Of a DNA stretch of 64,000 nucleotides, positions 4,963 through 42,499 are shown in pieces. A program made the position numbers and the translations under genes. This stretch comes from an uncultured Planctomycetales bacterium (GTDB lineage Bacteria > Omnitrophota > Gorgyraeia > Zapsychrales > Fredricksoniimonadaceae), in the NCBI GenBank assembly GCA_964572155.1, contig CAZNDZ010000001.1, positions 910,290 to 974,289 on the forward strand. The letters run 5' to 3'. Within the stretch, counting starts at the first letter, position 1, and the number at the start of each line of letters is the position of its first letter. The notes under the pieces are model-generated. The model was given only the letters and a program-made list of their open reading frames with translations, had not been told where the DNA came from and searched no databases.

Positions 4963-5328
4963 ATGCCAAAAACCATCCTAGTTGTTGATGATGAACCTGT
5001 CATTGTAGAGATTGCCAAGCGCAAGTTAACCGAACTTGGTTATGAAATAGCAACTGCAGGAAATGGGGTGGAAGCAATTAATCAAATGAAGGCCAAAAAA
5101 CCGGATTTGATCTTACTAGATATACAAATGCCCGTCATGAACGGCTACACCTTTATGATGGAAAAAGTAAAAATGCCAGATTATGCCAAAGTTCCGGTTG
5201 TTGTTTTAACCGCCTATGCAGAAATGGAACCCCTTTTCAAACGCCACGGCGCCATCGCCTATATCCTTAAACCCATCAAGCTCCAAGATGTCATCGCCTT
5301 AGTCCAAAAGACCATCGGCGCGCCGTAA
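4963..5328 (+). CDS. Stand-alone response-regulator receiver (CheY-like REC) domain protein
   Basis: 121 aa with N-terminal acidic pair 'VVDDEP', phospho-acceptor context 'LILLDIQMP', 'VVVLTAY' and 'ILKPIK'. No output domain and no adjacent histidine kinase. Confidence 0.8.
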   Translation: MPKTILVVDDEPVIVEIAKRKLTELGYEIATAGNGVEAINQMKAKKPDLILLDIQMPVMNGYTFMMEKVKMPDYAKVPVVVLTAYAEMEPLFKRHGAIAYILKPIKLQDVIALVQKTIGAP

Positions 5329-5361
5329 CCCACTTTTCGGAGATCAACTTGTTTTTCGCCC

Positions 5362-5380
5362 TATAGTATGTATATACTAT
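5362..5380 (+). promoter_or_regulatory. AT-rich promoter-like element with inverted repeat ATAGTAT-gtat-ATACTAT; shares TATAGTATG and TGTATATA with the paralog B upstream region
   Basis: The sequence 'ctatagtatgtatatactatggcatcATG' has a TATACT -10-like hexamer only 8 nt from the ATG and no Shine-Dalgarno. The same 8-9-mers occur at 37384..37398 upstream of paralog B. Confidence 0.4.
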
Positions 5381-5386
5381 GGCATC

Positions 5387-8383
5387 ATGCGTAAATTAGT
5401 TTTTATCATAGTTTTAGCTAGTTTTATTCTAAGCGTCTTTAATATTCCAACACTTAAAGCCAGTGAGATCGTATTACCTTCGCCTGGCACCATGGTTCAT
5501 TTAAGCCCTTCGTTTCAACCCCCAATATTAAAAGGCATTAAAGTTCATCCTGATAACCCATTTAAATTCGAATTTGTGTTGTCGCAGGGCGACAACGCAT
5601 CCGCCGTAGCTGAACACGAAAGTAATTCAGCGAAGGCGGATTTCCTTAAACAAGAATCAACAAAATTAATCAAGTATTTCCTCGCCGCCCTAACCACGCC
5701 CGAAAAAGACATGTGGGTTAATTTAAGCCCCTACGAAAAAGACCGCATTGTGCCCGACGGTTTTGGTCAAACCGAAATGGGACGTGACTTATTAGCCCAA
5801 GATTATATCCTTAAACAAATCACCGCATCCTTAGTTTATCCCGAGGGGGAGATTGGCAAAACATTTTGGAAACGCATTTATGAAGCAACCGCCAATAAGA
5901 ATGTGCCTGTAAACACCTTTAATAAAGTATGGATAGTCCCAGCAAAAGCTGTCGTGTATGAGAACCCAGCATCAGGCACTGCGTATGTGGTTGAATCGTC
6001 ACTTAAAGTGTTAACCGAGCAAGATTACCTTGCTAATACCAAAAATAACAATCAACAAAACAACAATCAAATCGTCCGAGACATCATCATCCCGCAACTC
6101 ACCAAAGAAATCAACGAAGGCAAAAACTTCGCCCAACTCCGACAAGTATACAATTCCTTAATCTTAGCGACGTGGTACAAAAAGAAGATCCGAGACAGCA
6201 TCCTTTCGCAAGTCTACGCAGATAAAAATAAAGTAGCAGGGATCAACATAGACGATCCTTTGGAAAAGCAAAAAATTTATGACCAATATTTACAAGCGTT
6301 CAAGAAGGGGGCGTATAACTTCATCAAAGTAGAGCAAGATCCTTTAACGCAACAGATGATGCCAAGGAAGTATTTTTCGGGTGGGATGCATATGAATATG
6401 GACATGATGTCAACGGTTCATGTAATGCCAAATAGCTTTACCGATTCTAATCAAGCAATGTTGGTACAAGTGAGTATTGCTCCTGAAGGAGCGCGAGTTA
6501 ATGAGGCGATAGATCAACCTAAAGACCCGAAAGTTTTAGCTTTAACAGATTCAATTAATGCATCTATTCATGAAAAAGGTATTTTGGAAATGCAATCAAT
6601 TGATTATGACGATCCTTTATATGTTCAGGTCAGAAATATTATTGCAGTTGCTAACAATCACGAGTTTCATGCTGGAGATGAATACCGTAGCGGGATGGCA
6701 GAAGCGGTTTACAGGGTTGTTCAATATTTAAAATCGAGAAATGATCTTATGAAATTAGACTTTGAGCAGATAGCGAGATTTTTATTGCTAAAAAGGGTGA
6801 TGATTGCAGGAAAATTAGCAGAAAAAGGTAATAGTGATGAAATAGATCTTATTTCAGGTGTAGGAGATAGCGACGGATGGAGGGTTAGATCGCTTGGTAG
6901 GTTTGGATCTCCTCAATCTATTTCTTTTGCTAGTTCCAAGGGGTATCCTGAACTTTATCAAAAGTTAATGCGTAAGAAAAATGAATTTGAATTATCAAAG
7001 AATGGGATATTAACTTATAGAAAAACCTATAGATTTGGAGCGACTAGAACCAAGTATGATCAAATCATTGAAGTTGATAATGATTTTCTGGAATTTAAAA
7101 TTTATCATGCTGATCCAAATTCAGTTCCTTTAATTTTGTTTCATCTGCAAGATCTCTGGACGGAGATATTAAGTAATTCTAATCTAGATAAACGTGATCG
7201 TCTAATAGCTGAAATGGAATGGTGGTTTTATCAGGCTAATCCCTATATCAGGGCTGGGGCAAGCATTGGTAATGCGCTATCTCTTATTGCACAAAGTTTA
7301 ACAGGCAAGATTTTGGATGATCATTTCGAGCACCATGACTGGGACGCTTTATCTAGCACACTCGAGGAATATATCCTTAATCGTTCAAATCAATTTCATC
7401 AATTAAGACAGATACAAGCTGCTTCAAACCCTGCAACTAAAACAGGAAAGACAGCGGACAACGCCCAATTAGCTCAAGACGCTGCCATGCATCATACAGA
7501 GAGTGTTCCTGATTTATCTCAATTTAAAGTAGGAATATCAAATGATCGTATTTCATTATTTAATCAGGGAAAAACTTATGAGTCGCTAAGCAGAGAGGGT
7601 CGAAGTCACATCTTTATATATGGAAATTATGTTATTCGAGTACGGCCTAATACCGAACAAATGTTTCTTAATCTGCAAAGCATCGTAGCCGCATTTAATT
7701 TAGGAAATCAAATTGGCATTCCAATTCCGAGTGTTAGGGCTAGTGGATATATAAATGGAGAAGATGGTAAAGTTTATTCAGCTATCGTTGTTGATCGTAT
7801 AGAGGGTTTTTCTCTTGATAGTAGTTCTATAAAAATGGTAAATCAAGAAGACAGGGTGCGATATACGGAATTATATATTGAATTATTAAGAGCGATGCTT
7901 AAAAATCATGTGGTCCTCGGTGACTGGCAAGCAGCGCAGTTTATGATTGGATATAATGTGAATGACCCTCAAAAAAATATTAAGGCTTGGCTAGTTGATC
8001 CGAAAAGCATGTATGTAGATGAGAATAAACGAAATCGAGCAATAGTGTATTATCAAAATATCTTTTCTCAGGATTTTGTAGAAGTTAATGAATATTTAGA
8101 TTTACGGCTGATTGAAGAATTTTTATTGACGGAAAGTGGAGTACACAGAAGTCGTTTCGAATCTATTCGTGATTCAGCAGCTGCGGCTCGTGGTGGGATT
8201 GATTTTAATGCTGACAAAATAAATTTAGAGACAAATGTCGGTGAGGGGATTAAGTTTCATGTTGATCCTGCCATGTTTAAACAACTTCAAGATGCCCCAG
8301 GATTTACACCGGTTATTATTGACATTCAACCCATGACGGATTTGCCAAAGTTTCTTGGGCTAAAAGTAAGCAACTTGCCTTAA
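5387..8383 (+). CDS. Giant Sec-secreted modular protein, paralog A, with conserved N- and C-terminal modules and unique central cargo; function unknown
   Basis: 998 aa. Sec signal peptide 'MRKLVFIIVLASFILSVFNIPTLKA|SE'. N-terminal ~330 aa and the last ~55 aa are highly similar to ORF 37407..41774 at both protein and nucleotide level. The middle is AT-rich and unrelated. Confidence 0.85.
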   Translation: MRKLVFIIVLASFILSVFNIPTLKASEIVLPSPGTMVHLSPSFQPPILKGIKVHPDNPFKFEFVLSQGDNASAVAEHESNSAKADFLKQESTKLIKYFLAALTTPEKDMWVNLSPYEKDRIVPDGFGQTEMGRDLLAQDYILKQITASLVYPEGEIGKTFWKRIYEATANKNVPVNTFNKVWIVPAKAVVYENPASGTAYVVESSLKVLTEQDYLANTKNNNQQNNNQIVRDIIIPQLTKEINEGKNFAQLRQVYNSLILATWYKKKIRDSILSQVYADKNKVAGINIDDPLEKQKIYDQYLQAFKKGAYNFIKVEQDPLTQQMMPRKYFSGGMHMNMDMMSTVHVMPNSFTDSNQAMLVQVSIAPEGARVNEAIDQPKDPKVLALTDSINASIHEKGILEMQSIDYDDPLYVQVRNIIAVANNHEFHAGDEYRSGMAEAVYRVVQYLKSRNDLMKLDFEQIARFLLLKRVMIAGKLAEKGNSDEIDLISGVGDSDGWRVRSLGRFGSPQSISFASSKGYPELYQKLMRKKNEFELSKNGILTYRKTYRFGATRTKYDQIIEVDNDFLEFKIYHADPNSVPLILFHLQDLWTEILSNSNLDKRDRLIAEMEWWFYQANPYIRAGASIGNALSLIAQSLTGKILDDHFEHHDWDALSSTLEEYILNRSNQFHQLRQIQAASNPATKTGKTADNAQLAQDAAMHHTESVPDLSQFKVGISNDRISLFNQGKTYESLSREGRSHIFIYGNYVIRVRPNTEQMFLNLQSIVAAFNLGNQIGIPIPSVRASGYINGEDGKVYSAIVVDRIEGFSLDSSSIKMVNQEDRVRYTELYIELLRAMLKNHVVLGDWQAAQFMIGYNVNDPQKNIKAWLVDPKSMYVDENKRNRAIVYYQNIFSQDFVEVNEYLDLRLIEEFLLTESGVHRSRFESIRDSAAAARGGIDFNADKINLETNVGEGIKFHVDPAMFKQLQDAPGFTPVIIDIQPMTDLPKFLGLKVSNLP

Positions 8384-8388
8384 AGCGT

Positions 8389-8420
8389 AATTGACGCTCG
8401 CCGTCTTTTGTGTTATTTAT
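8389..8420 (+). repeat. Direct repeat copy 1 (aATTGACGCTCgccgtCTTTTGTGTTATTTat); doubles as a sigma70-like promoter (TTGACG-17 nt-TATTTA)
   Basis: It matches copy 2 at 9574..9606, with a 10-nt and a 14-nt block identical. It lies immediately after the paralog A stop codon. Confidence 0.6.
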
Positions 8421-8489
8421 AAGCTCTAAAGAAGCCCACCTACGTATTATCTCTGCCGCTTCTAAAACCCACCAAATTAGAGGCAGAGT

Positions 8490-8720
8490 ATGAAGTCCCA
8501 TTTAAATATTGATAAAGATTACAAAGTTTGGCTTGCAAATATCAAGGCAAGAGTCCGTAATGCTCAGATTAAAGCAGCTATTAGCGTCAATACAGAATTG
8601 TTAGAACTTTATTGGAGCTTGGGAGCGGATATTTTTAATAAACAAAGAAATGCCAAATGAGGCGAGGGATTAAAGTCAATTGGGCAACAAGTTGTTGCCC
8701 AAATTAGACAAATTCAATAG
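8490..8720 (+). pseudogene. Remnant of a DUF1016/YhcG-family (PDDEXK-like) gene: N-terminal ~75 codons only, with an in-frame TGA at the conserved Trp position
   Basis: The translation 'MKSHLNIDKDYKVWLANIKARVRNAQIKAAISVNTELLELYWSLGADIFNKQRNAK*GEGLKSIGQQVVAQIRQIQ*' aligns to the YhcG N-terminus (..RIRQAQLKAAVSVNRELILLYWHIGKDI...QGWGAKVI..). TGA at 8658..8660 sits where the conserved W is. The reading frame ends at 8718..8720, whereas full-length family members are ~350 aa. Confidence 0.6.
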
Positions 8721-8757
8721 GTGCAAAATAGTGAAATAAATAAGGAAAGGCAGTAAA

Positions 8758-9438
8758 TTGCTATTTTTATATTTAGATGAGTCTGGGAATTATGTTTTTA
8801 CTAAAAAGGGTTCAGAATATTTAATTTTTACGGCTTTAGCAACAAGTAATCCTTACATGTTGCAATATAGGCTTTGTGAAGTAGAGGAGAAGCTTAGAGA
8901 AAATAGTCTAATGACGGCTGAGTCCCAATACTTTCATGCTACAGAAGACAAACAGGTTGTTCGGGATGAGGTCTTTAAAGTTTTGAAAGAGTGTGATGAT
9001 TTTACAGTGGATAGTATTATTGTTGAGAAATGTAAAACGAATATAGAGTTGAGGGAAGAATCTCAATTATACAGAAAGATTTATCATGTTCTTTTGGAGT
9101 ATGTTTTTAAAAGACATCAAGACGTTGAGAAAATTATAATATTTATTCATGCCGCACCGGTTAATAAGAAAAGACATGCCTTTGAGAAAGGGATTAAAGA
9201 AACCCTAAACGGTATTTTGGATAAAGAGCGACTTGGTGGGAAAATAAAATACCACATTCAGTATCTTCCAACAATTTCTAGCTATGGATTACAGGCTGTT
9301 GATTATTGTTCATGGGCTTTAAAGAAGAAATGGGGAGAATGGGGGGAGAAGATCGACTTACGACCATATGGTTGCATTTCGAATAAGGTAAAGAGTGAGT
9401 TTGAGATATTTAAAATAGGTCAAAAGATATATTATTGA
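8758..9438 (+). CDS. DUF3800-family protein
   Basis: 226 aa, TTG start preceded by SD 'AAGGAAAGG'. N-terminal 'LFLYLDESGNYVF' matches the DUF3800 'IYIDESG' signature and C-terminal 'LQAVDYCSWAL' matches its 'QLADLIAYAI' motif. Strongly AT-rich relative to neighbours. Confidence 0.6.
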   Translation: MLFLYLDESGNYVFTKKGSEYLIFTALATSNPYMLQYRLCEVEEKLRENSLMTAESQYFHATEDKQVVRDEVFKVLKECDDFTVDSIIVEKCKTNIELREESQLYRKIYHVLLEYVFKRHQDVEKIIIFIHAAPVNKKRHAFEKGIKETLNGILDKERLGGKIKYHIQYLPTISSYGLQAVDYCSWALKKKWGEWGEKIDLRPYGCISNKVKSEFEIFKIGQKIYY

Positions 9439-9573
9439 CGCGCTCTAGTTTATAGAATATACTTTTAATGCATTTAAAAGGTACCCTCTGGCTGAAAAAT
9501 CCCTCGGGATCGACCGAAAGGTTTAGGTTGGAGGGTCAAACTTTTTCTGGGCTATGCAAACTCCTGCAACTTC

Positions 9574-9606
9574 ATTGACGCTCCAAGGCTTTTGTGTTAT
9601 TTTATC
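9574..9606 (+). repeat. Direct repeat copy 2 (cATTGACGCTCcaaggCTTTTGTGTTATTTtat); promoter-like element immediately upstream of yggS
   Basis: See copy 1. TTGACG-17 nt-TATTTT lies directly upstream of the yggS start at 9612. Confidence 0.6.
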
Positions 9607-9611
9607 CCCCT

Positions 9612-10301
9612 ATGGTTAAAGATAATTTTCTTAAAGTTCAAGCACAAATGAACGACGCTGCTAAAGCGTCTGGGCGCAAGCCTGAGGATGTTATTTTAGT
9701 TGCTGTGACGAAGACGGCGCCTTTAGACGATATTGGTGCTGTTATTGAAGCTGGGGCTTTGCATATTGCGGAAAACAGGGTGCAAGAGGCTCAGGCGAAG
9801 TTTCCAACGCTTAAAGCTAAATATCCTCAAGTCACCACGCACATCATTGGGCATTTACAAAGTAATAAGGCGAAAGATGCCATTCAAGTAGTGTCCATGA
9901 TTCAGTCTGTGGATAGTTTGAAATTAGCCAATGAGATTCAAAAACAAGCATTGAAATTAAATGTTACGGCTAATATCTTGGTGCAATTTAATACAGCGCG
10001 TGAAGAACAAAAGTTTGGTGCGACGCCGGAAGAAGCATTAACGTTGATTGAAGGCATCAGCCAATTATCACATGTGCGCATCAAAGGTTTAATGACCATG
10101 GCGCCTTATACAGAAGACCAAGGCATTGTGCGTAAAACATTTGCGGATTTGCGTAAAATTAAAGAAGATGTTGCATCACGTTTTAAAGGTCATCCATCCG
10201 TTGACATGGGCATCATGTCCATGGGCATGAGTGGTGATTATAAGATTGCCATCGAAGAAGGTTCAACCATGGTGCGCGTCGGGAGCGCTATTTTTAAATG
10301 A
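9612..10301 (+). CDS. yggS: YggS-family pyridoxal-phosphate homeostasis protein (alanine-racemase-fold PLP enzyme)
   Basis: 'MVKDNFLKVQAQMNDAAKASGRKPEDVILVAVTKT' is a typical YggS N-terminus. The start is refined to the ATG at 9612; the track ORF begins at 9594. TGA stop overlaps the proC start (ATGA). Confidence 0.85.
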   Translation: MVKDNFLKVQAQMNDAAKASGRKPEDVILVAVTKTAPLDDIGAVIEAGALHIAENRVQEAQAKFPTLKAKYPQVTTHIIGHLQSNKAKDAIQVVSMIQSVDSLKLANEIQKQALKLNVTANILVQFNTAREEQKFGATPEEALTLIEGISQLSHVRIKGLMTMAPYTEDQGIVRKTFADLRKIKEDVASRFKGHPSVDMGIMSMGMSGDYKIAIEEGSTMVRVGSAIFK

Positions 10302-37406: not shown

Positions 37407-40400
37407 ATGCATAAAAGTCTTATCTACATCTTAATCGTCGCATTTGCCTGTGGAACCTTGTGCCCAAATAGGGTTTTGGCCAATGAGCTTGTTTTACCAG
37501 CGCCAGGTACAATGGTTCATTTGAGTCCTTCGGTTGATACGCCCATTTTAAAAGGCATCAAAGTACATCCCGAAAATCCTTTTAAATTCGATTTCGTCTT
37601 GTCGCAAGGTGATGCAACTTCAAACTTAAACGTAACATCAAACAAACTTGTTAAGTATTTTCTAGCCGCATTGACCACCCCAGAAAAAGACATGTGGGTT
37701 AACTTAAGCCCATATGAAAAAGACCGCATTGTCCCTGAGCATTTTGGTACAACAGAAATGGGTCGAGATCTTTTAGCCCAAGATTATTTGCTAAAACAAA
37801 TTACCGCGTCGCTGGTTTATCCTGAAGGGGAAGTGGGGCAAGCCTTCTGGAAAAAAGTCTATGCGTTATCACCGAATAAAAATATCCCTGTAAACACCTT
37901 TAACAAAGTATGGATCGTCCCTAATAAAGCCGTTGTTTATGAAAACGCCAAAGCTGGCAGCGCCTATGTGGTTGAATCATCCTTGAAAGTCATGACTGAG
38001 CAAGATTACCTTGCCGACACAAAAAATAAGAGCACATCAACTAATAATCAAGTTGTGCGCGATATTGTCATCCCACAACTCACCAAAGAAGTCAACGAAG
38101 GCAGCAACTTTGCGCAACTGCGACAAGTATACAATTCCTTAATCTTAGCGACGTGGTACAAGAAAAAGATCAAAGACAGCATCCTGTCACAAGTATACGC
38201 CGATAAAAATAAAGTAGCCGGCGTAAATATCGAAGACCCCCAAGAAAAGCAAAAAATCTATCAGCGTTACCTTGAAGCGTTCAAGAAGGGGGCCTACAAC
38301 TACATCAAAGAAGAGCAAGACCCTGTAACGCATCAAATCATTCCTAAGAAATATTTTTCTGGTGGGATAAGCGCAACAAATTTTAGTAATCAAGCTATGA
38401 CGGTAACAACAGATCCTTCCAATATTCAAAAAGGAATGAATGGTGATAATTTAAAAATTGTATCTGTGTCTATAGACAGGGCGCAAATTGTTCCCATTGT
38501 CCCAATTGCTTCAGTTAATGTTAATGAAGGTGTGACGAATAAATGGCTTGGTAATCATTTGGATCAAATAGATATGTTTCAAGCTTTTGAAATTCTCAAC
38601 GAAGAACATCCTGAATTTAAAAAATTAGAAGAACAAGAAAATAAGATTCTTGTTATCGGGGGAACAGTAGAAGAAGTTAATTTCTTAATTCGGCGATATC
38701 CAAAATCAAGCATTACGGTAGTCAGCTTAAATGAATCTGATTTAAGAGGCTTGCAAGCGTTTGAAAGTAATATGGGAGTAGGAAAAATTAATGGTTTATT
38801 TCTAGGCGATGTCAGAGATTTGACAGCAAGAGAAATTCCTGATGATTCTTTTGATATTGTTTTCTCTCATGGGATAGATTCTTCGACTTTCTTAAGTGAG
38901 GTTGATGCTACGAAAGTATTACAAGGAATAGCATCTCAAGAAATGCGCATGCTTAAAGCGGGTGGCCTTTTATATCATCCTTATATAGGGGATAAAAATG
39001 CTTTAAAGCAATATTATTCGCAACAGTCTGAAGCTGGTTCTCTAAAAGAACTTAAATCAGGTAAAGAGTACCCAGAATTCTTTGTTAAAAGTATGCAGGG
39101 TTCAACTCAATTAAGTAAACAAATATTTGATAGGGCACAAGCATCAAAGAAATTAGTTGTTACAAATCGGGCTAAGGAAATTTTGAGAGAAGTATTTGAT
39201 ATTGGACCGGGTGTTTGGGTGAAAATCCGCGATCTGAGAAAGGGTGAGATTGCTGTTCAGAGAGGTTTATCTGGTTCAGAGCATGAAGGGGATTATATTG
39301 GAGATGGTATTTCTGAAGCATTGAATATATTAAATGGAAAGGTAGATCTCGAAAAACGGTCATACAGTCGAAATGATTTGGATGAATTAACATATGCAGT
39401 AACAAGTCATTATGCTTTACCTTTTGCAATGCGATTTGCTGTTGATGACAAAATTGATCCAGAGATAGGTTTGAGCGAAGAACATATTTATTTGAAAGGT
39501 ATGAATCCTGAAAATTTACTTCAAGTTGCTTTGATTCCTAATCGATCACAGGCTTATTATTGGGCTAGACGGTATCTTAGCTTAATAGAGGATTTAGGTA
39601 TTAAGTTCCGACCTAATAGCAACGGTAAAGTTTTTTCTGATAGCGTTAAAGAGATTATGAAAGAGATAGAGTTCGGAAAGAAGACAGCTTATGGAAGACC
39701 AATAAAAAATTCAGATTATATCAATTCGAAGTTAAGTGCATTATTTGAAAAGTATGAAGCGCCATCCCAGCAGGTTGTTAATTTTATCAGCTCTGGTGCA
39801 ATGATTTCAGAACGTAATATGAACGTGGCGGATAATGCACAAGCATCGTCTGAGGGTAAAATGTTTGGAAGCGTTGAATACCAAGCAATGAAGAATGAAA
39901 AAGATATATCGGTTTCAGTGAAGGACGGTCAACTTATTCTTGAGGGAAAAGAAGGGGTTTATAAAATGCCGTTTTTTGATTCTAAGGATGTTCAAATAGG
40001 AAAACGCATAGGTCAACGAGATGAAAATTCTAATATGGGGTATAGAAAGATCGTTTTCAAAAACAGTGTAGAATTTTTGGGGTATATGCCAGAATTAGGT
40101 AGTTTAACAGCGTTGGAAAGTTTTCTTAAAACACTGAGCATAGTACATACAAACCCTCAGGCTGAGGCTGCATTACCAAGGATTTATGGAGCTTATTATA
40201 ATGATAGAAATGAAATTGAATTAATCGTTGATAAATTTGATTTGCCTCATCCAGACTCTAATTATTTAACAAAAGATGCATCAGTTGAGGTTTTAGATAA
40301 TACATCACAAATACTTTCTGATGGTGTGTTGGCCAGTATTGTATTAAATGGTCTTAATTTAAGCAAAGTGTTCGAAGTTGATTATACGTTTATTGAAGCA

Positions 40401-41774
40401 AATGGACATTTGAGATTTTCATTTCCTGTTAGAACTATCCAATGGATGGAAGAAGTTGGCAGAGGTAAGATTTTTAGAGTCGAGAAGGAGTACCCCTCAC
40501 TAGATTTTGATGCAATCTTGGATGTGCAATATATGATTAAGGAGGGATACCTTCGAGAAGTTATTTCTTATAAAGCCATATTTGCATCGTTTGTAAGAAG
40601 CGCATTTTCTAGATTGATAGCATTTGATCAATCATTACCAAAGATATATTTGATGAGTGGGTATGCTTTGAATGATCTTGTCAGCAATTTGCGTTTTAGA
40701 TTTCTACGGAGAATGATTAACGAATATGGTTTCAAAGCAGTAATCAAAATACAAAACCAACTACATCTCAACGATCCTCGCTTAGAGCGTATTATTTTAG
40801 AAAGAATACACCAACAGTCAAATAATCTTCGTTGGATATTCGAAGTAGAAACAGATCTGGGAGAGTTTATATTTAAGACAGATAGAGATTTGCCATGGGA
40901 CAAAAGAGTAAGATTGGCTTTGAAAATGAAGTTAAAAGATTTTCAATTAAAAACGAATACAGGATTTGATTTTAAAAGTACATATGAAAGTCTATATCAG
41001 GACTTTGTTAAAGAGTCAGGCATTTCAAATCAATCCATGAGCTCTAATCTAAACGGAGCTAAAATATCTAGAAGAGGAATAATTGCTGGTGCGGTTGGTT
41101 TGGGTTTGGCGAGAGTGTTACCTAAGGCTTCTGCGCAACCAGTGAACATTGAGTCAGTGAGAATAATAAACCCTAAAACTTCTTTTGGATATTCTATATT
41201 TGAATGGGATGCGATGAAAGAAGAGGAAAATCTTAGAATAAGTTTGAAAGCTGCAGACGCGCTTGCACAGATATATTTAATGAAAGATCCAAGATCTAAG
41301 TTGTCTGATTTTCTTGAGGTGGCAAAGAATGCTGCATCTGATGAAGATAGAAATACAATGCGATGGGTGTTTCATGTGCTTGATAAACGGGGGGATAGTT
41401 GGACAGATAAAATTAATTGGGATAATAAAGCGGATGTGGATGCGCAGTTTAAGCGAGTCTATGATGACGGGTCTAATGAGCTGAGAAAGTCGGCAAATAT
41501 AGCATTAGGAAAGTATTGGTCGCCGGAATTATTAAAAGCGGTTTTGGCAAAAGATAAGGCTATGAACGTAGATACGAATCAGGATCTTGGTGGTATTGAT
41601 TTTAATGCTGATAAAATGAAGTTAGAGCTTCAGAATTCTGGAGATAGCATTAAGTTTCAGATGGATGCGGCAGAGCTTAAGCAATTGCAGGATGCGTCTG
41701 GGTTTACGCCGGTTATTGTGAATATTCAACCAATGACGGATTTGAAATTGTTTTTGGGTTTGTCTCAAAAATAA
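37407..41774 (+). CDS. Giant Sec-secreted modular protein, paralog B, with conserved N- and C-terminal modules and unique central cargo including a class-I methyltransferase-like segment
   Basis: 1455 aa. Signal peptide 'MHKSLIYILIVAFACGTLCPNRVLA|NE'. The N-terminal ~300 aa after the signal and the C-terminal ~55 aa are highly similar to ORF 5387..8383. The middle is AT-rich and unique. Confidence 0.85.
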   Translation: MHKSLIYILIVAFACGTLCPNRVLANELVLPAPGTMVHLSPSVDTPILKGIKVHPENPFKFDFVLSQGDATSNLNVTSNKLVKYFLAALTTPEKDMWVNLSPYEKDRIVPEHFGTTEMGRDLLAQDYLLKQITASLVYPEGEVGQAFWKKVYALSPNKNIPVNTFNKVWIVPNKAVVYENAKAGSAYVVESSLKVMTEQDYLADTKNKSTSTNNQVVRDIVIPQLTKEVNEGSNFAQLRQVYNSLILATWYKKKIKDSILSQVYADKNKVAGVNIEDPQEKQKIYQRYLEAFKKGAYNYIKEEQDPVTHQIIPKKYFSGGISATNFSNQAMTVTTDPSNIQKGMNGDNLKIVSVSIDRAQIVPIVPIASVNVNEGVTNKWLGNHLDQIDMFQAFEILNEEHPEFKKLEEQENKILVIGGTVEEVNFLIRRYPKSSITVVSLNESDLRGLQAFESNMGVGKINGLFLGDVRDLTAREIPDDSFDIVFSHGIDSSTFLSEVDATKVLQGIASQEMRMLKAGGLLYHPYIGDKNALKQYYSQQSEAGSLKELKSGKEYPEFFVKSMQGSTQLSKQIFDRAQASKKLVVTNRAKEILREVFDIGPGVWVKIRDLRKGEIAVQRGLSGSEHEGDYIGDGISEALNILNGKVDLEKRSYSRNDLDELTYAVTSHYALPFAMRFAVDDKIDPEIGLSEEHIYLKGMNPENLLQVALIPNRSQAYYWARRYLSLIEDLGIKFRPNSNGKVFSDSVKEIMKEIEFGKKTAYGRPIKNSDYINSKLSALFEKYEAPSQQVVNFISSGAMISERNMNVADNAQASSEGKMFGSVEYQAMKNEKDISVSVKDGQLILEGKEGVYKMPFFDSKDVQIGKRIGQRDENSNMGYRKIVFKNSVEFLGYMPELGSLTALESFLKTLSIVHTNPQAEAALPRIYGAYYNDRNEIELIVDKFDLPHPDSNYLTKDASVEVLDNTSQILSDGVLASIVLNGLNLSKVFEVDYTFIEANGHLRFSFPVRTIQWMEEVGRGKIFRVEKEYPSLDFDAILDVQYMIKEGYLREVISYKAIFASFVRSAFSRLIAFDQSLPKIYLMSGYALNDLVSNLRFRFLRRMINEYGFKAVIKIQNQLHLNDPRLERIILERIHQQSNNLRWIFEVETDLGEFIFKTDRDLPWDKRVRLALKMKLKDFQLKTNTGFDFKSTYESLYQDFVKESGISNQSMSSNLNGAKISRRGIIAGAVGLGLARVLPKASAQPVNIESVRIINPKTSFGYSIFEWDAMKEEENLRISLKAADALAQIYLMKDPRSKLSDFLEVAKNAASDEDRNTMRWVFHVLDKRGDSWTDKINWDNKADVDAQFKRVYDDGSNELRKSANIALGKYWSPELLKAVLAKDKAMNVDTNQDLGGIDFNADKMKLELQNSGDSIKFQMDAAELKQLQDASGFTPVIVNIQPMTDLKLFLGLSQK

Positions 41775-41807: not shown

Positions 41808-42197
41808 ATGAAATCAACTACTAAGACTTGGATAGCTTTAGCAAAGAATGATTTATCCTTAGCTAAAGAGTTGGTTAAGAAGAAGGGGCGGTATCATTAT
41901 TGTGTTCACTTTTGTCATCAATCTTTAGAAAAGATGTTGAAGGCTATTATTAGCGAACGAACAAGATTGTTGCCATTACCGACACATAATTTTAAGACGT
42001 TGTTGGATCAAAGTGGGTTAAAAGATATTCCTGAAGATATTAAGATTTTCTTGTATGGGATGATACCTAATTATATAGGAACAAAATACCCTGAAGATAT
42101 TATGAAGCTTTATAAGAAGTATAATAAAATTTATGCTGATGGGGTTTTAAAGAGAACGGTTGAGGTTGTAAAATGGTTAGAAAAATTAGCGAGATAA
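41808..42197 (+). CDS. HEPN-domain protein (toxin-like component of a HEPN/MNT pair)
   Basis: 'CVHFCHQSLEKMLKAIISERTRLLPLPTHNFKTLL' (R-x6-H) and 'MIPNYIGTKYPED' match the HEPN (PF05168-type) consensus '..AEKALKA....THDL..LL...YYIEARYPD'. Confidence 0.75.
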   Translation: MKSTTKTWIALAKNDLSLAKELVKKKGRYHYCVHFCHQSLEKMLKAIISERTRLLPLPTHNFKTLLDQSGLKDIPEDIKIFLYGMIPNYIGTKYPEDIMKLYKKYNKIYADGVLKRTVEVVKWLEKLAR

Positions 42198-42499
42198 AGA
42201 GAATATTGGCCGAATATAAGGCTGAGTTAAAGACGCATGGCGTGCGCGTTTCTAAGATGTATTTATATGGCTCTTACGCAAATGGGAATCCAAAGTCTTA
42301 TAGTGATATTGATGTGGTGGTAATCTCGTCAGATTTGGCTAAGTATCCTGCATTAAAGCGTCAAGAGGTGTTGTCACAATGGACTATTCCAGTCAATGCG
42401 CCTTTAGAAGTAATTGGGTACACACCAAAAGAATTTAGTTTGGCTAAAGGAACAATTTTTGGCCAAATTCTAAATCAAACTGCAATATCGTTAAATTAA
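42173..42499 (+). CDS. Minimal nucleotidyltransferase (MNT) domain protein (antitoxin-like partner)
   Basis: 'MYLYGSYANGNPKSYSDIDVVVI' is the G-S-x9-D-x-D nucleotidyltransferase motif; overlaps the HEPN gene by 25 nt. Confidence 0.75.
   Translation: MVRKISEIKRILAEYKAELKTHGVRVSKMYLYGSYANGNPKSYSDIDVVVISSDLAKYPALKRQEVLSQWTIPVNAPLEVIGYTPKEFSLAKGTIFGQILNQTAISLN

What the first reader, a model, noticed from the sequence alone, without database searches (positions are those of the whole stretch)
8389..9607. ~1.2-kb AT-rich mini-island flanked by ~31-bp imperfect direct repeats, inserted between paralog A and yggS
'aATTGACGCTCgccgtCTTTTGTGTTATTTat' (8389..8420) and 'cATTGACGCTCcaaggCTTTTGTGTTATTTtat' (9574..9606) are direct repeats. 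Each reads as a sigma70-like promoter (TTGACG-17-TATTTA/T) immediately upstream of a gene start. Between them lie a truncated DUF1016/YhcG remnant, a DUF3800 gene and a possibly structured 130-nt spacer. All are clearly lower in GC than yggS/proC downstream. The arrangement looks like an integration scar, that is, duplication of the yggS promoter region when a defence/mobile-type cassette was inserted. No integrase remains.
Basis: seen in the sequence. Interest (0 to 1): 0.6.

Follow-up and report, generated by a model that had tools for sequence, protein, structure and literature searches.

The report
Duplicated yggS promoter flanking defence islet
A 1.15-kb piece of foreign, AT-rich DNA (a decayed nuclease gene, a DUF3800 gene and the small conserved RNA attached to it) sits between two copies of the promoter of the housekeeping gene yggS in an Omnitrophota genome. 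It is an ordinary integration scar in a variable hotspot, and its most interesting part is the uncatalogued RNA.

Summary
The repeat is real. ATTGACGCTC-N5-CTTTTGTGTTATTT occurs at 8390-8418 and 9574-9602 (25/29 identical). The next-best match in the 64 kb is at chance level.

It is the native yggS promoter. Relatives carry exactly one copy, ending 8-9 nt before the yggS ATG, so the mRNA is probably leaderless. In those relatives the copy lies directly after a response-regulator gene, which is the empty site. Two public-collection scans found no dispersed copies.

Other relatives carry VapBC or ParDE-like cassettes at the same gap, so the gap is a hotspot. The 998-aa "paralog A" is itself an insertion there.

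The islet holds three things:
- a DUF1016/YhcG stub of 61 codons;
- an intact DUF3800 gene;
- a conserved ~75-nt hairpin RNA gene with its own promoter and terminator, not a "spacer".

DUF3800 plus RNA (8755-9551) recurs as one ~800-bp module at four or more unrelated loci. The RNA core is 87-98% identical where the coding sequence is 57-79%. It matches no Rfam 15 family.

One of those loci (L036) is also bracketed by imperfect direct repeats of local sequence (123 nt, 89%).

How the duplication arose remains inferred.

The parts
4963..5328 (+). Response-regulator gene (121 aa). This is the conserved left border of the hotspot; in empty-site relatives it lies directly upstream of the yggS promoter.
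   Evidence: PF00072 gene of 121 aa immediately before yggS in L004, L009, L010.
5387..8383 (+). Paralog A, a 998-aa signal-peptide protein. It is itself absent from empty-site relatives, so it is an older or separate insertion in the same gap.
   Evidence: A homolog is present in L005.
8379..8420 (+). yggS-promoter copy 1 (core 8390-8418: -35 TTGACG 8391-8396, -10 TATTTA 8414-8419). It has an ancestral-like left flank and spacer (GCCGT) and now points into the islet.
   Evidence: spacer 4/5 identical to L009 and 3/5 to L004; left flank 7/11 to L004.
8490..8672 (+). DUF1016/YhcG pseudogene stub: 56 codons, then TGA in place of Trp. Read-through matches only positions 1-48 of the 137-position N-domain profile, and the C-terminal nuclease part is missing.
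   Evidence: (PADLOC PDC-S02).
8680..8702 (.). Perfect 10-bp palindromic hairpin TTGGGCAACAAgTTGTTGCCCAA. It looks like a terminator on the minus strand only. Its role is unknown.
8758..9438 (+). Intact DUF3800 gene (226 aa, TTG start, motifs LDESG and QAVD), of the RNase H-like family.
   Evidence: Fold information comes from PMC7736814 and PMC10910872.
9435..9463 (+). Promoter of the DUF3800-linked RNA (TTGACG-17-TATACT). It overlaps the DUF3800 stop codon and is conserved in all module copies.
9470..9547 (+). Conserved ~75-nt hairpin RNA with a U-run (core 9477-9538). It is the 3' part of the ~800-bp DUF3800 module 8755-9551.
   Evidence: No Rfam match.
9562..9604 (+). yggS-promoter copy 2 (core 9574-9602: -35 TTGACG 9575-9580, TG-extended -10 TATTTT 9598-9603). 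Its spacer is divergent (CAAGG) and its right flank is ancestral.
   Evidence: right flank 12/12 identical to L004.
9612..10301 (+). yggS (229 aa). The ATG lies 8 nt after the -10 hexamer, so the mRNA is probably leaderless. proC follows.

Best explanation
The repeat is the native sigma-70-type (TG-extended -10) promoter of yggS. In this Omnitrophota clade it abuts the start codon so closely that the mRNA is probably leaderless.

The gap between the response-regulator gene and this promoter is a recombination hotspot that holds different accessory cargo in different lineages.

In the window's lineage a foreign AT-rich segment recombined into the promoter. It originally comprised a YhcG-type nuclease gene, later mostly replaced or deleted, plus a DUF3800+RNA module. 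The event left one promoter copy on each side. This is the outcome expected when a circular DNA carrying a promoter-like stretch integrates by a single crossover or site-specific exchange within the -10 block.

The upstream copy keeps the ancestral left flank and spacer and now reads into the islet. The downstream copy keeps the ancestral right flank and keeps yggS expressed. Both are held intact by selection while the unconstrained bases drifted or came from a diverged donor.

What is shown: the identity of the repeat, the empty sites, the variable hotspot, the modular cargo and the conserved RNA. What is inferred: the crossover mechanism, transcription from each copy and leaderless translation.
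For: A single copy sits directly before the yggS ATG in L004, L005, L006, L009-11 and L014.

Empty sites are L004 and L009-11.

Other cargo occupies the same gap: a MazE-like antitoxin plus PIN toxin in L005, and a ParE pair in L006.

The pattern is hybrid. Copy 1 has a spacer 4/5 identical to L009 and a left flank 7/11 identical to L004. Copy 2 has a spacer at most 1/5 identical to any ortholog but a right flank 12/12 identical to L004.

The islet GC is in the lowest 3.3% of same-size windows.

The DUF3800+RNA module 8755-9551 recurs at 72-75% nucleotide identity in three unrelated contexts (L033/34, L035, L036). A fourth, more divergent copy (L038-40, coding sequence 59% identical) was found through its protein and RNA.

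The module in L036 is likewise bracketed by imperfect direct repeats that duplicate local sequence: 123 nt, 89% identical, covering the 3' end of the neighbouring glycosyltransferase gene.

The motif is not dispersed.
Against: No recombinase, excised circle or donor carrying the CAAGG-spacer promoter was found.

Spacers also vary strongly among orthologs (L005 and L006 are 1-2/5 identical to L004). Copy 2's odd spacer could therefore be drift rather than donor sequence.

Copy 2's left flank also resembles the ancestral intergenic sequence (8/11), which a purely foreign origin does not predict.

Copy 1's -10 lacks the conserved final T, so its activity is uncertain.

No transcription data were available.

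The nearest empty site comes from a genome whose YggS is only 91% identical, not from the same species.
Confidence: 0.72

Rival explanations
1. This is a true replicative target-site duplication. A transposase- or casposase-like enzyme made staggered cuts about 30-40 nt apart in the promoter, and gap repair duplicated it. The differences between the copies are later mutations.
For: The direct repeats flank the insert exactly, and both copies show similarity to the ancestral sequence for about 11 nt to the left of ATTGAC.
Against: A duplication of 29-40 nt is far longer than known transposon target-site duplications (my own knowledge). There are no terminal inverted repeats at the islet ends and no transposase. 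Unconstrained positions are only 6/16 identical between the copies, less than between orthologs of different species (L004 against L009: 13/16). The parallel case in L036 duplicates 123 nt.
Confidence: 0.08
2. There was no duplication. The incoming YhcG gene brought its own promoter of the same class, and the resemblance to the yggS promoter is convergence on a strong consensus, possibly used as microhomology for the left junction.
For: A related YhcG stub in L037 has its own promoter ATTGACACGTCTTAACGCGCGTGTTAATTTATCACCC. It shares ATTGAC, GTGTTA and TTTAT with the motif.
Against: L037 shares only the hexamers (2/14 in the stretch between them). Copy 1 matches the yggS promoter of L004 at 24/24 block positions, at 3-4/5 spacer positions and in its left flank. 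No other promoter in the 64 kb comes closer than 11 mismatches.
Confidence: 0.1
3. The 29-mer is the attachment site of a host-encoded site-specific recombinase (Xer/dif-like, as in IMEX elements or pdif modules) that happens to overlap the promoter. The islet would then be a recombinase-less passenger module.
For: The layout of two conserved arms around a variable centre, and direct repeats around a small integrase-less module, recall pdif and IMEX modules (my own knowledge). TTGTGTTATTT resembles the XerD arm TTATGTTAAAT at 8/11 positions (read by eye).
Against: The left arm shows no dyad symmetry with the right arm. The variable 5 nt are not where a dif central region would lie relative to the XerD-like arm. 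There is one copy per genome in relatives, always at yggS, and GC skew does not switch at this position. The conserved blocks coincide exactly with the -35 and extended -10 elements.
Confidence: 0.05
4. This is an assembly artefact or chimera that joins two strains at a repeated promoter.
For: One contig (L003) breaks at 8639, inside the islet.
Against: Two further independent assemblies from other samples span both copies at 100% identity.
Confidence: 0.01

Closest known systems
Genomic islets and integrative elements bounded by att direct repeats that re-create the target (for example islands at tRNA 3' ends)
   Same: Imperfect direct repeats of tens of nt flank foreign, compositionally deviant DNA. 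One repeat restores the function of the interrupted target. Empty sites exist in relatives.
   Different: The target is a promoter rather than a gene's 3' end. The islet is only 1.15 kb and no integrase or excisionase gene is left. The recombination has not been demonstrated.
Defence/accessory-gene hotspots between conserved core genes
   Same: The same response regulator | yggS gap carries different small cargo in different lineages: a MazE-like antitoxin plus PIN toxin, a ParE pair, a 998-aa secreted protein, and YhcG/DUF3800.
   Different: Only the window's lineage shows a duplicated border sequence. The cargoes are single cassettes rather than large islands.
DUF3800-associated RNA motifs I-XI (Weinberg et al. 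2017, PMC5737381)
   Same: A structured, highly conserved RNA sits next to a DUF3800 gene and is followed by an intrinsic terminator. Its function is unknown.
   Different: It matches no Rfam 15 model, even at E<=10. In all five distinct copies it lies on the same strand, 39-76 nt 3' of the gene, with its own conserved promoter. I could not check that every one of the 11 published motifs is in Rfam.
Retron type VII (RT + DUF3800; Mestre et al. 2020, PMC7736814)
   Same: A DUF3800 protein is paired with a non-coding RNA gene, and the best PADLOC hit is DUF3800_VII.
   Different: There is no reverse transcriptase in the islet or next to any of the module copies. The protein keeps the QxxD motif that retron-linked DUF3800 lacks.
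Integron gene cassettes (ORF + attC)
   Same: A compact ORF plus a 3' imperfect hairpin is found in many contexts, and homology starts at the ORF start.
   Different: The 3' element has its own promoter and U-run and an almost invariant sequence. There is no integron integrase and no cassette array. The attC features were not tested formally.

Membership tests
Sigma-70 promoter with TG-extended -10 | -35 close to TTGACA, a 16-18 nt spacer and -10 close to TATAAT (A2, T6), optionally with TG upstream | tested here: met
   Copy 2: TTGACG-17-TATTTT with TG. It is conserved before yggS in six relatives.
Sigma-70 promoter with TG-extended -10 | The same criteria applied to copy 1 | tested here: inconclusive
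   TTGACG-17-TATTTA lacks T at position 6 and is not reported by the scanner. There are no TSS data.
Integrated genomic islet with att-type direct repeats | Direct repeats at both borders | tested here: met
   25/29 identical, unique in the window.
Integrated genomic islet with att-type direct repeats | An empty site with a single repeat copy in related genomes | tested here: met
   L004 and L009-11.
Integrated genomic islet with att-type direct repeats | A cognate integrase or recombinase gene | tested here: not met
   The only ORFs with family hits are the DUF1016_N stub and DUF3800.
Transposon / IS insertion | Terminal inverted repeats and a transposase | tested here: not met
   No inverted repeat pairs the islet ends and there is no transposase ORF.
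DUF3800 (PF12686) | A Pfam match above the gathering score; an N-terminal DE motif and a C-terminal QxxD motif | tested here: met
   42.2 bits against a cutoff of 21. LDESG and QAVD are invariant in 25 homologs.
DUF1016 / YhcG (PADLOC PDC-S02) | A full-length protein with the N-domain and the C-terminal nuclease domain | tested here: not met
   Only profile positions 1-48 of 137 of the N-domain are matched, there is an in-frame TGA, and there is no C-domain. It is a pseudogene stub.
Rfam DUF3800 RNA motifs | A covariance-model match | tested here: not met
   No hit at the gathering score or at E<=10 in the window, nor at E<=1 in four other module copies.
Rfam DUF3800 RNA motifs | A conserved structured RNA adjacent to a DUF3800 gene, often with a terminator | tested here: met
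   Core 87-98% identical against 57-79% for the coding sequence. All stem substitutions keep pairing and 3 pairs change on both sides. Folding z-score is -3.1.
Retron type VII | A reverse-transcriptase gene next to DUF3800 and the ncRNA | tested here: not met
   There is no RT ORF in the islet or in the neighbourhoods of L033, L035, L036 and L038.
YggS family PLP-binding protein | An Ala_racemase_N fold protein of about 230 aa, orthologous to named YggS proteins | tested here: met

The most novel reading that the evidence does not exclude
The ~800-bp unit of a DUF3800 RNase H-like gene plus a promoter-bearing ~75-nt hairpin RNA is a self-contained, mobile RNA-protein system. Its RNA would be a previously uncatalogued (twelfth) DUF3800-associated class. 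The unit would spread between chromosomal sites without its own recombinase, by a mechanism that leaves imperfect duplications of the local target (29-40 nt here, 123 nt in L036).
Probability: 0.3. Interest if true: 0.6.

Novelty: new member of a known kind. Interest (0 to 1): 0.38.

Why it matters
As an integration scar it is routine. It documents a small accessory-gene hotspot upstream of yggS in Omnitrophota, and it shows how a promoter that must abut its probably leaderless gene can be duplicated so that both host gene and cargo stay expressed.

The more useful product concerns the DUF3800 puzzle raised in 2017. Many unrelated structured RNAs accompany this RNase H-like protein, and neither the RNAs nor the protein has a known function. 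This locus supplies a compact, well-delimited example: protein plus an RNA with its own promoter and terminator. The RNA is far more conserved than the protein and matches no Rfam family. That makes it a convenient pair for expression, pull-down and cleavage experiments.

Tried and rejected
Rfam. The gathering-score search on the whole window and the E<=10 search on 8350-9650 gave nothing relevant. The DapZ and CRISPR-DR51 hits are chance, or a terminator hairpin.

Motif scans. The GTDB genome scan and the JGI metagenome scan found no second locus type. The non-Omnitrophota hits are generic TTGACGC...TGnTATTT promoters. Two hits on one 'Aenigmatarchaeota' contig (L019, L028) differ in flank and context and were not pursued.

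Module searches. A phage and plasmid BLAST of the module found no match. An IMG/VR exact-pattern scan for the RNA core found none.

L033. Its full-length DUF1016 protein, which lies beside a DUF3800 module, is unrelated to the window's stub, so this is no evidence for a conserved YhcG-DUF3800 pair.

YhcG stub homologs. Only short fragments came back. One is truncated by an IS element but no DNA was available. L037 shows only a promoter of the same class.

Extended repeat to the left (8346-8362 against 9537-9554, CAAAGTTTCT-TGGGCTA). It is marginal (51/2000 shuffles), and both sides are independently constrained (the paralog C-terminus and the RNA terminator). I do not claim it.

A possible third partial promoter copy after the response-regulator stop (5349-5367). 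It is not significant (67/1000) and overlaps the paralogs' own shared upstream sequence.

The dif/Xer reading was rejected on arm symmetry and position. Supplementary files of PMC5737381 are not held, so the published motif drawings could not be compared.

Full report
OBSERVATION

The two sequences are present as described. The shared core is ATTGACGCTC-N5-CTTTTGTGTTATTT at 8390-8418 and 9574-9602. It is 25/29 identical: a 10-nt block containing the -35 element and a 14-nt block containing a TG-extended -10 are perfect, while the 5-nt stretch between them matches at only 1/5.

Allowing 3 mismatches, the pattern has exactly these two hits, against none in 100 shuffles. A Hamming scan of the whole window on both strands puts the pair at 6 mismatches of 31. 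Every other position has at least 11, the level seen in shuffled sequence.

The 1155 nt between the copies are 35.4% GC, against 42% for yggS and proC. That places them in the lowest 3.3% of same-size windows. The upstream 998-aa gene is also low (37.9%).

Independent assemblies from three other samples cover the region at 100% identity. Two of them span both copies, so this is not an assembly artefact.

WHAT THE REPEAT IS

YggS homologs identify the organism as Candidatus Omnitrophota. I fetched the contigs of the closest YggS relatives. Every one carries a single copy of the motif, ending 8-9 nt before the yggS ATG:

- L004 (91% YggS identity): ATTGACGCTCGTCGCCTTTTGTGTTATTTTATCCCCCTATG
- L009, L010, L011 (77%)
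- L005 (86%)
- L006 (81%)
- L014 (from the genome scan)

The motif is therefore the native yggS promoter. The scanner reads copy 2 as TTGACG-17-TATTTT with TG upstream. The -10 hexamer ends 8 nt before the ATG and there is no Shine-Dalgarno sequence, so the mRNA is probably leaderless. That is inference; no transcript data were available.

Exact-pattern scans of one genome per GTDB species and of the JGI metagenome collection returned only Omnitrophota yggS promoters plus unrelated promoter-like chance matches. The motif is not a dispersed repeat.

EMPTY SITES AND A HOTSPOT

In L004 and L009-11 the 121-aa response-regulator gene (window 4963-5328) is followed after 16 nt by the promoter and yggS. 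Other relatives carry different cargo in the same gap:

- L006 has a small ORF plus a ParE toxin gene between the regulator and the promoter.
- L005 has a homolog of the 998-aa protein, followed by a MazE-like antitoxin gene and a PIN toxin gene, before the promoter.

Neither L005 nor L006 has a second promoter copy.

The window has regulator, then 998-aa protein, then promoter copy 1, then the islet, then promoter copy 2, then yggS. So the gap is a hotspot with nested, lineage-specific cargo, and the duplication is peculiar to the window's lineage.

ANATOMY OF THE ISLET

- Copy 1 is followed by a 69-nt leader and a DUF1016/YhcG stub. The stub has 56 codons and then TGA where relatives have Trp. 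Read-through extends the Pfam match only to position 48 of the 137-position N-domain, and no C-terminal domain is present. PADLOC files the stub under the defence candidate PDC-S02.
- A perfect 10-bp palindrome lies at 8680-8702.
- The DUF3800 gene (8758-9438) is intact. It has the LDESG and QAVD motifs, which are invariant in 25 homologs.

THE 'SPACER' IS AN RNA GENE

BLAST of the islet against contigs carrying DUF3800 homologs shows 72-75% nucleotide identity from 8755 to 9545-9551 and nowhere else. That interval is the ORF plus 107-113 nt downstream of it. The matches are three other copies: L033/L034, L035 and L036. A fourth copy, L038-40, is more divergent (coding sequence 59% identical, DUF3800 protein only 55%). 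It was found through its protein and RNA rather than by BLAST. The neighbouring genes differ in each case: an AsmA-like/834-aa region, DUF4143, glycosyltransferase/GH4, and a restriction-modification system.

Within that downstream stretch two elements are conserved in every copy:

- a promoter that overlaps the DUF3800 stop codon (TTGACG-17-TATACT in the window, 9435-9463);
- a 62-nt core, AAAGGTACCCTCTGGCTGAAAAATCCCTCGGGATCGACCGAAAGGTTTAGGTTGGAGGGTCA, followed by a T-run.

Pairwise identity of the core is 87-98%, whereas the coding sequences are 57-79% identical.

The core folds into one long hairpin (-28 kcal/mol, z = -3.1). Every substitution in the 18-pair lower stem preserves pairing and three pairs change on both sides. 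With only five distinct sequences the shuffle control is modest, 39/500.

No Rfam 15 family matches. This holds at the gathering score, at E<=10 in the window, and at E<=1 in four other copies. A covariance model built from these sequences finds the RNA only beside DUF3800 genes. It also gives a weak hit next to a 31%-identical DUF3800 gene on an IMG/VR contig.

The literature says the following:

- Weinberg et al. 2017 described eleven mutually dissimilar structured RNAs associated with DUF3800 genes. Several have terminators and their function is unknown (PMC5737381).
- DUF3800 has been modelled as RNase H/RNase H2-like. It occurs as the accessory protein of type VII retrons and alongside some Cas12a2 loci (PMC7736814, PMC10910872).

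The module here fits that picture but has no reverse transcriptase, and its RNA is not in Rfam.

HOW THE DUPLICATION AROSE

- Copy 1 has a spacer close to the ancestral one (GCCGT, against GTCGT in L009 and GTCGC in L004). Its left flank resembles the ancestral one (7/11 to L004), but its right flank is foreign.
- Copy 2 has a spacer unlike any ortholog (CAAGG, at most 1/5). Its right flank is identical to L004 (12/12).

This hybrid pattern is what a single reciprocal exchange within the shared -10 block would leave, if the chromosomal promoter recombined with a circular DNA carrying a similar sequence. That could be a Campbell-type or a site-specific integration.

It does not look like a fresh staggered-cut duplication. 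The unconstrained positions (flank and spacer) are 6/16 identical between the copies. The orthologous promoters of L004 and L009, which belong to different species, are 13/16 identical at the same positions. The 24 promoter-block positions are identical, which indicates selection on both copies.

There are caveats. Spacers also differ strongly in L005 and L006. Copy 2's left flank is 8/11 identical to L004. So long drift after an old duplication cannot be excluded.

One parallel was found. In L036 the DUF3800+RNA islet is bracketed by 123-nt direct repeats, 89% identical. They duplicate the last 26 codons and the 3' flank of the neighbouring glycosyltransferase gene. This is the same architecture with a different target, and again there is no recombinase. 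L033 and L035 show no such repeats within about 400 nt.

FUNCTIONAL READING (INFERRED)

yggS appears to be leaderless, so any insertion between the promoter and the ATG would silence it. The downstream copy avoids that.

The upstream copy is the only strong promoter-like site ahead of the stub and DUF3800. The only other candidate nearer to DUF3800 is a weak 9/12 match at 8705-8732. Copy 1 probably drives the cargo, although its -10 (TATTTA) lacks the usual final T.

The RNA has its own promoter and terminator.

COMPARISON AND VERDICT

It read the region as an integration scar that duplicated the yggS promoter, with a defence-type cargo and no integrase.

As a class this is a known kind of thing: a small islet with att-like direct repeats in a hotspot between core genes. 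The new information is threefold:

- the repeat is a clade-conserved promoter of a probably leaderless gene;
- the site is a multi-cargo hotspot;
- the 'spacer' is a strongly conserved, uncatalogued DUF3800-linked RNA that forms a mobile ~800-bp module with its protein.

Noticed in passing
window 5387-8383 and 37407-41774; 41808-42499: Paralogs A (998 aa) and B (1455 aa) share only the N-terminal 334 aa (72%) and the C-terminal 58 aa (71%) around unrelated middles. Paralog A has a marginal AvrB_AvrC hit at residues 572-626. Each is followed by a small accessory cassette. B is followed by a HEPN + nucleotidyltransferase pair, and the paralog A homolog in L005 by a MazE-like antitoxin plus PIN toxin.
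   Followed up: partly
L036 938-1060 and 2553-2675: Direct repeats of 123 nt (89% identical) duplicate the 3' end of a glycosyltransferase gene and bracket another DUF3800+RNA islet. No empty site could be fetched because the look-ups were exhausted.
   Followed up: partly
L041 3667-3783 (minus strand), IMG/VR contig: There is a weak covariance-model hit directly after a 31%-identical DUF3800 gene (25 bits with default filters, 13 bits with filters off). It shares the GCUGAAA...UAGG...GGUCAA stem framing but has a 58-nt apical insertion and lies on the opposite strand. It may be a distant relative of the RNA.
   Followed up: partly
window 9434-9445: The RNA promoter's -35 region in the window reads ATTGACGCGCTC, close to the yggS promoter's ATTGACGCTC. 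Other module copies have ATTGACATGCCC, ATTGACAGGCCC or ATTGACATAAAT. Three of the window's four ATTGACGC sites lie on the + strand within this 1.2 kb.
   Followed up: no
window 8639; proteins P0190-P0202: One assembly (L003) breaks at 8639, inside the YhcG stub. All 17 database relatives of the stub are short DUF1016_N fragments (56-101 aa), many ending just after the conserved ...KWG. One (P0190) is followed by an IS4/IS5-type transposase gene. YhcG genes in these genomes seem to be disrupted repeatedly near the same point.
   Followed up: partly
window 8680-8702: A perfect 10-bp palindrome, TTGGGCAACAAgTTGTTGCCCAA, lies between the YhcG stub and DUF3800. It looks like an intrinsic terminator only on the minus strand, where no gene remains.
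   Followed up: no
window 9594 vs 9612: Some gene callers start yggS at GTG 9594 (235 aa), which lies inside the promoter. The closest homologs are 229 aa and support ATG 9612.
   Followed up: yes
L038 5656-5742: A tRNA gene lies near the restriction-modification and DUF3800 cluster on that contig. This may be an island border.
   Followed up: no
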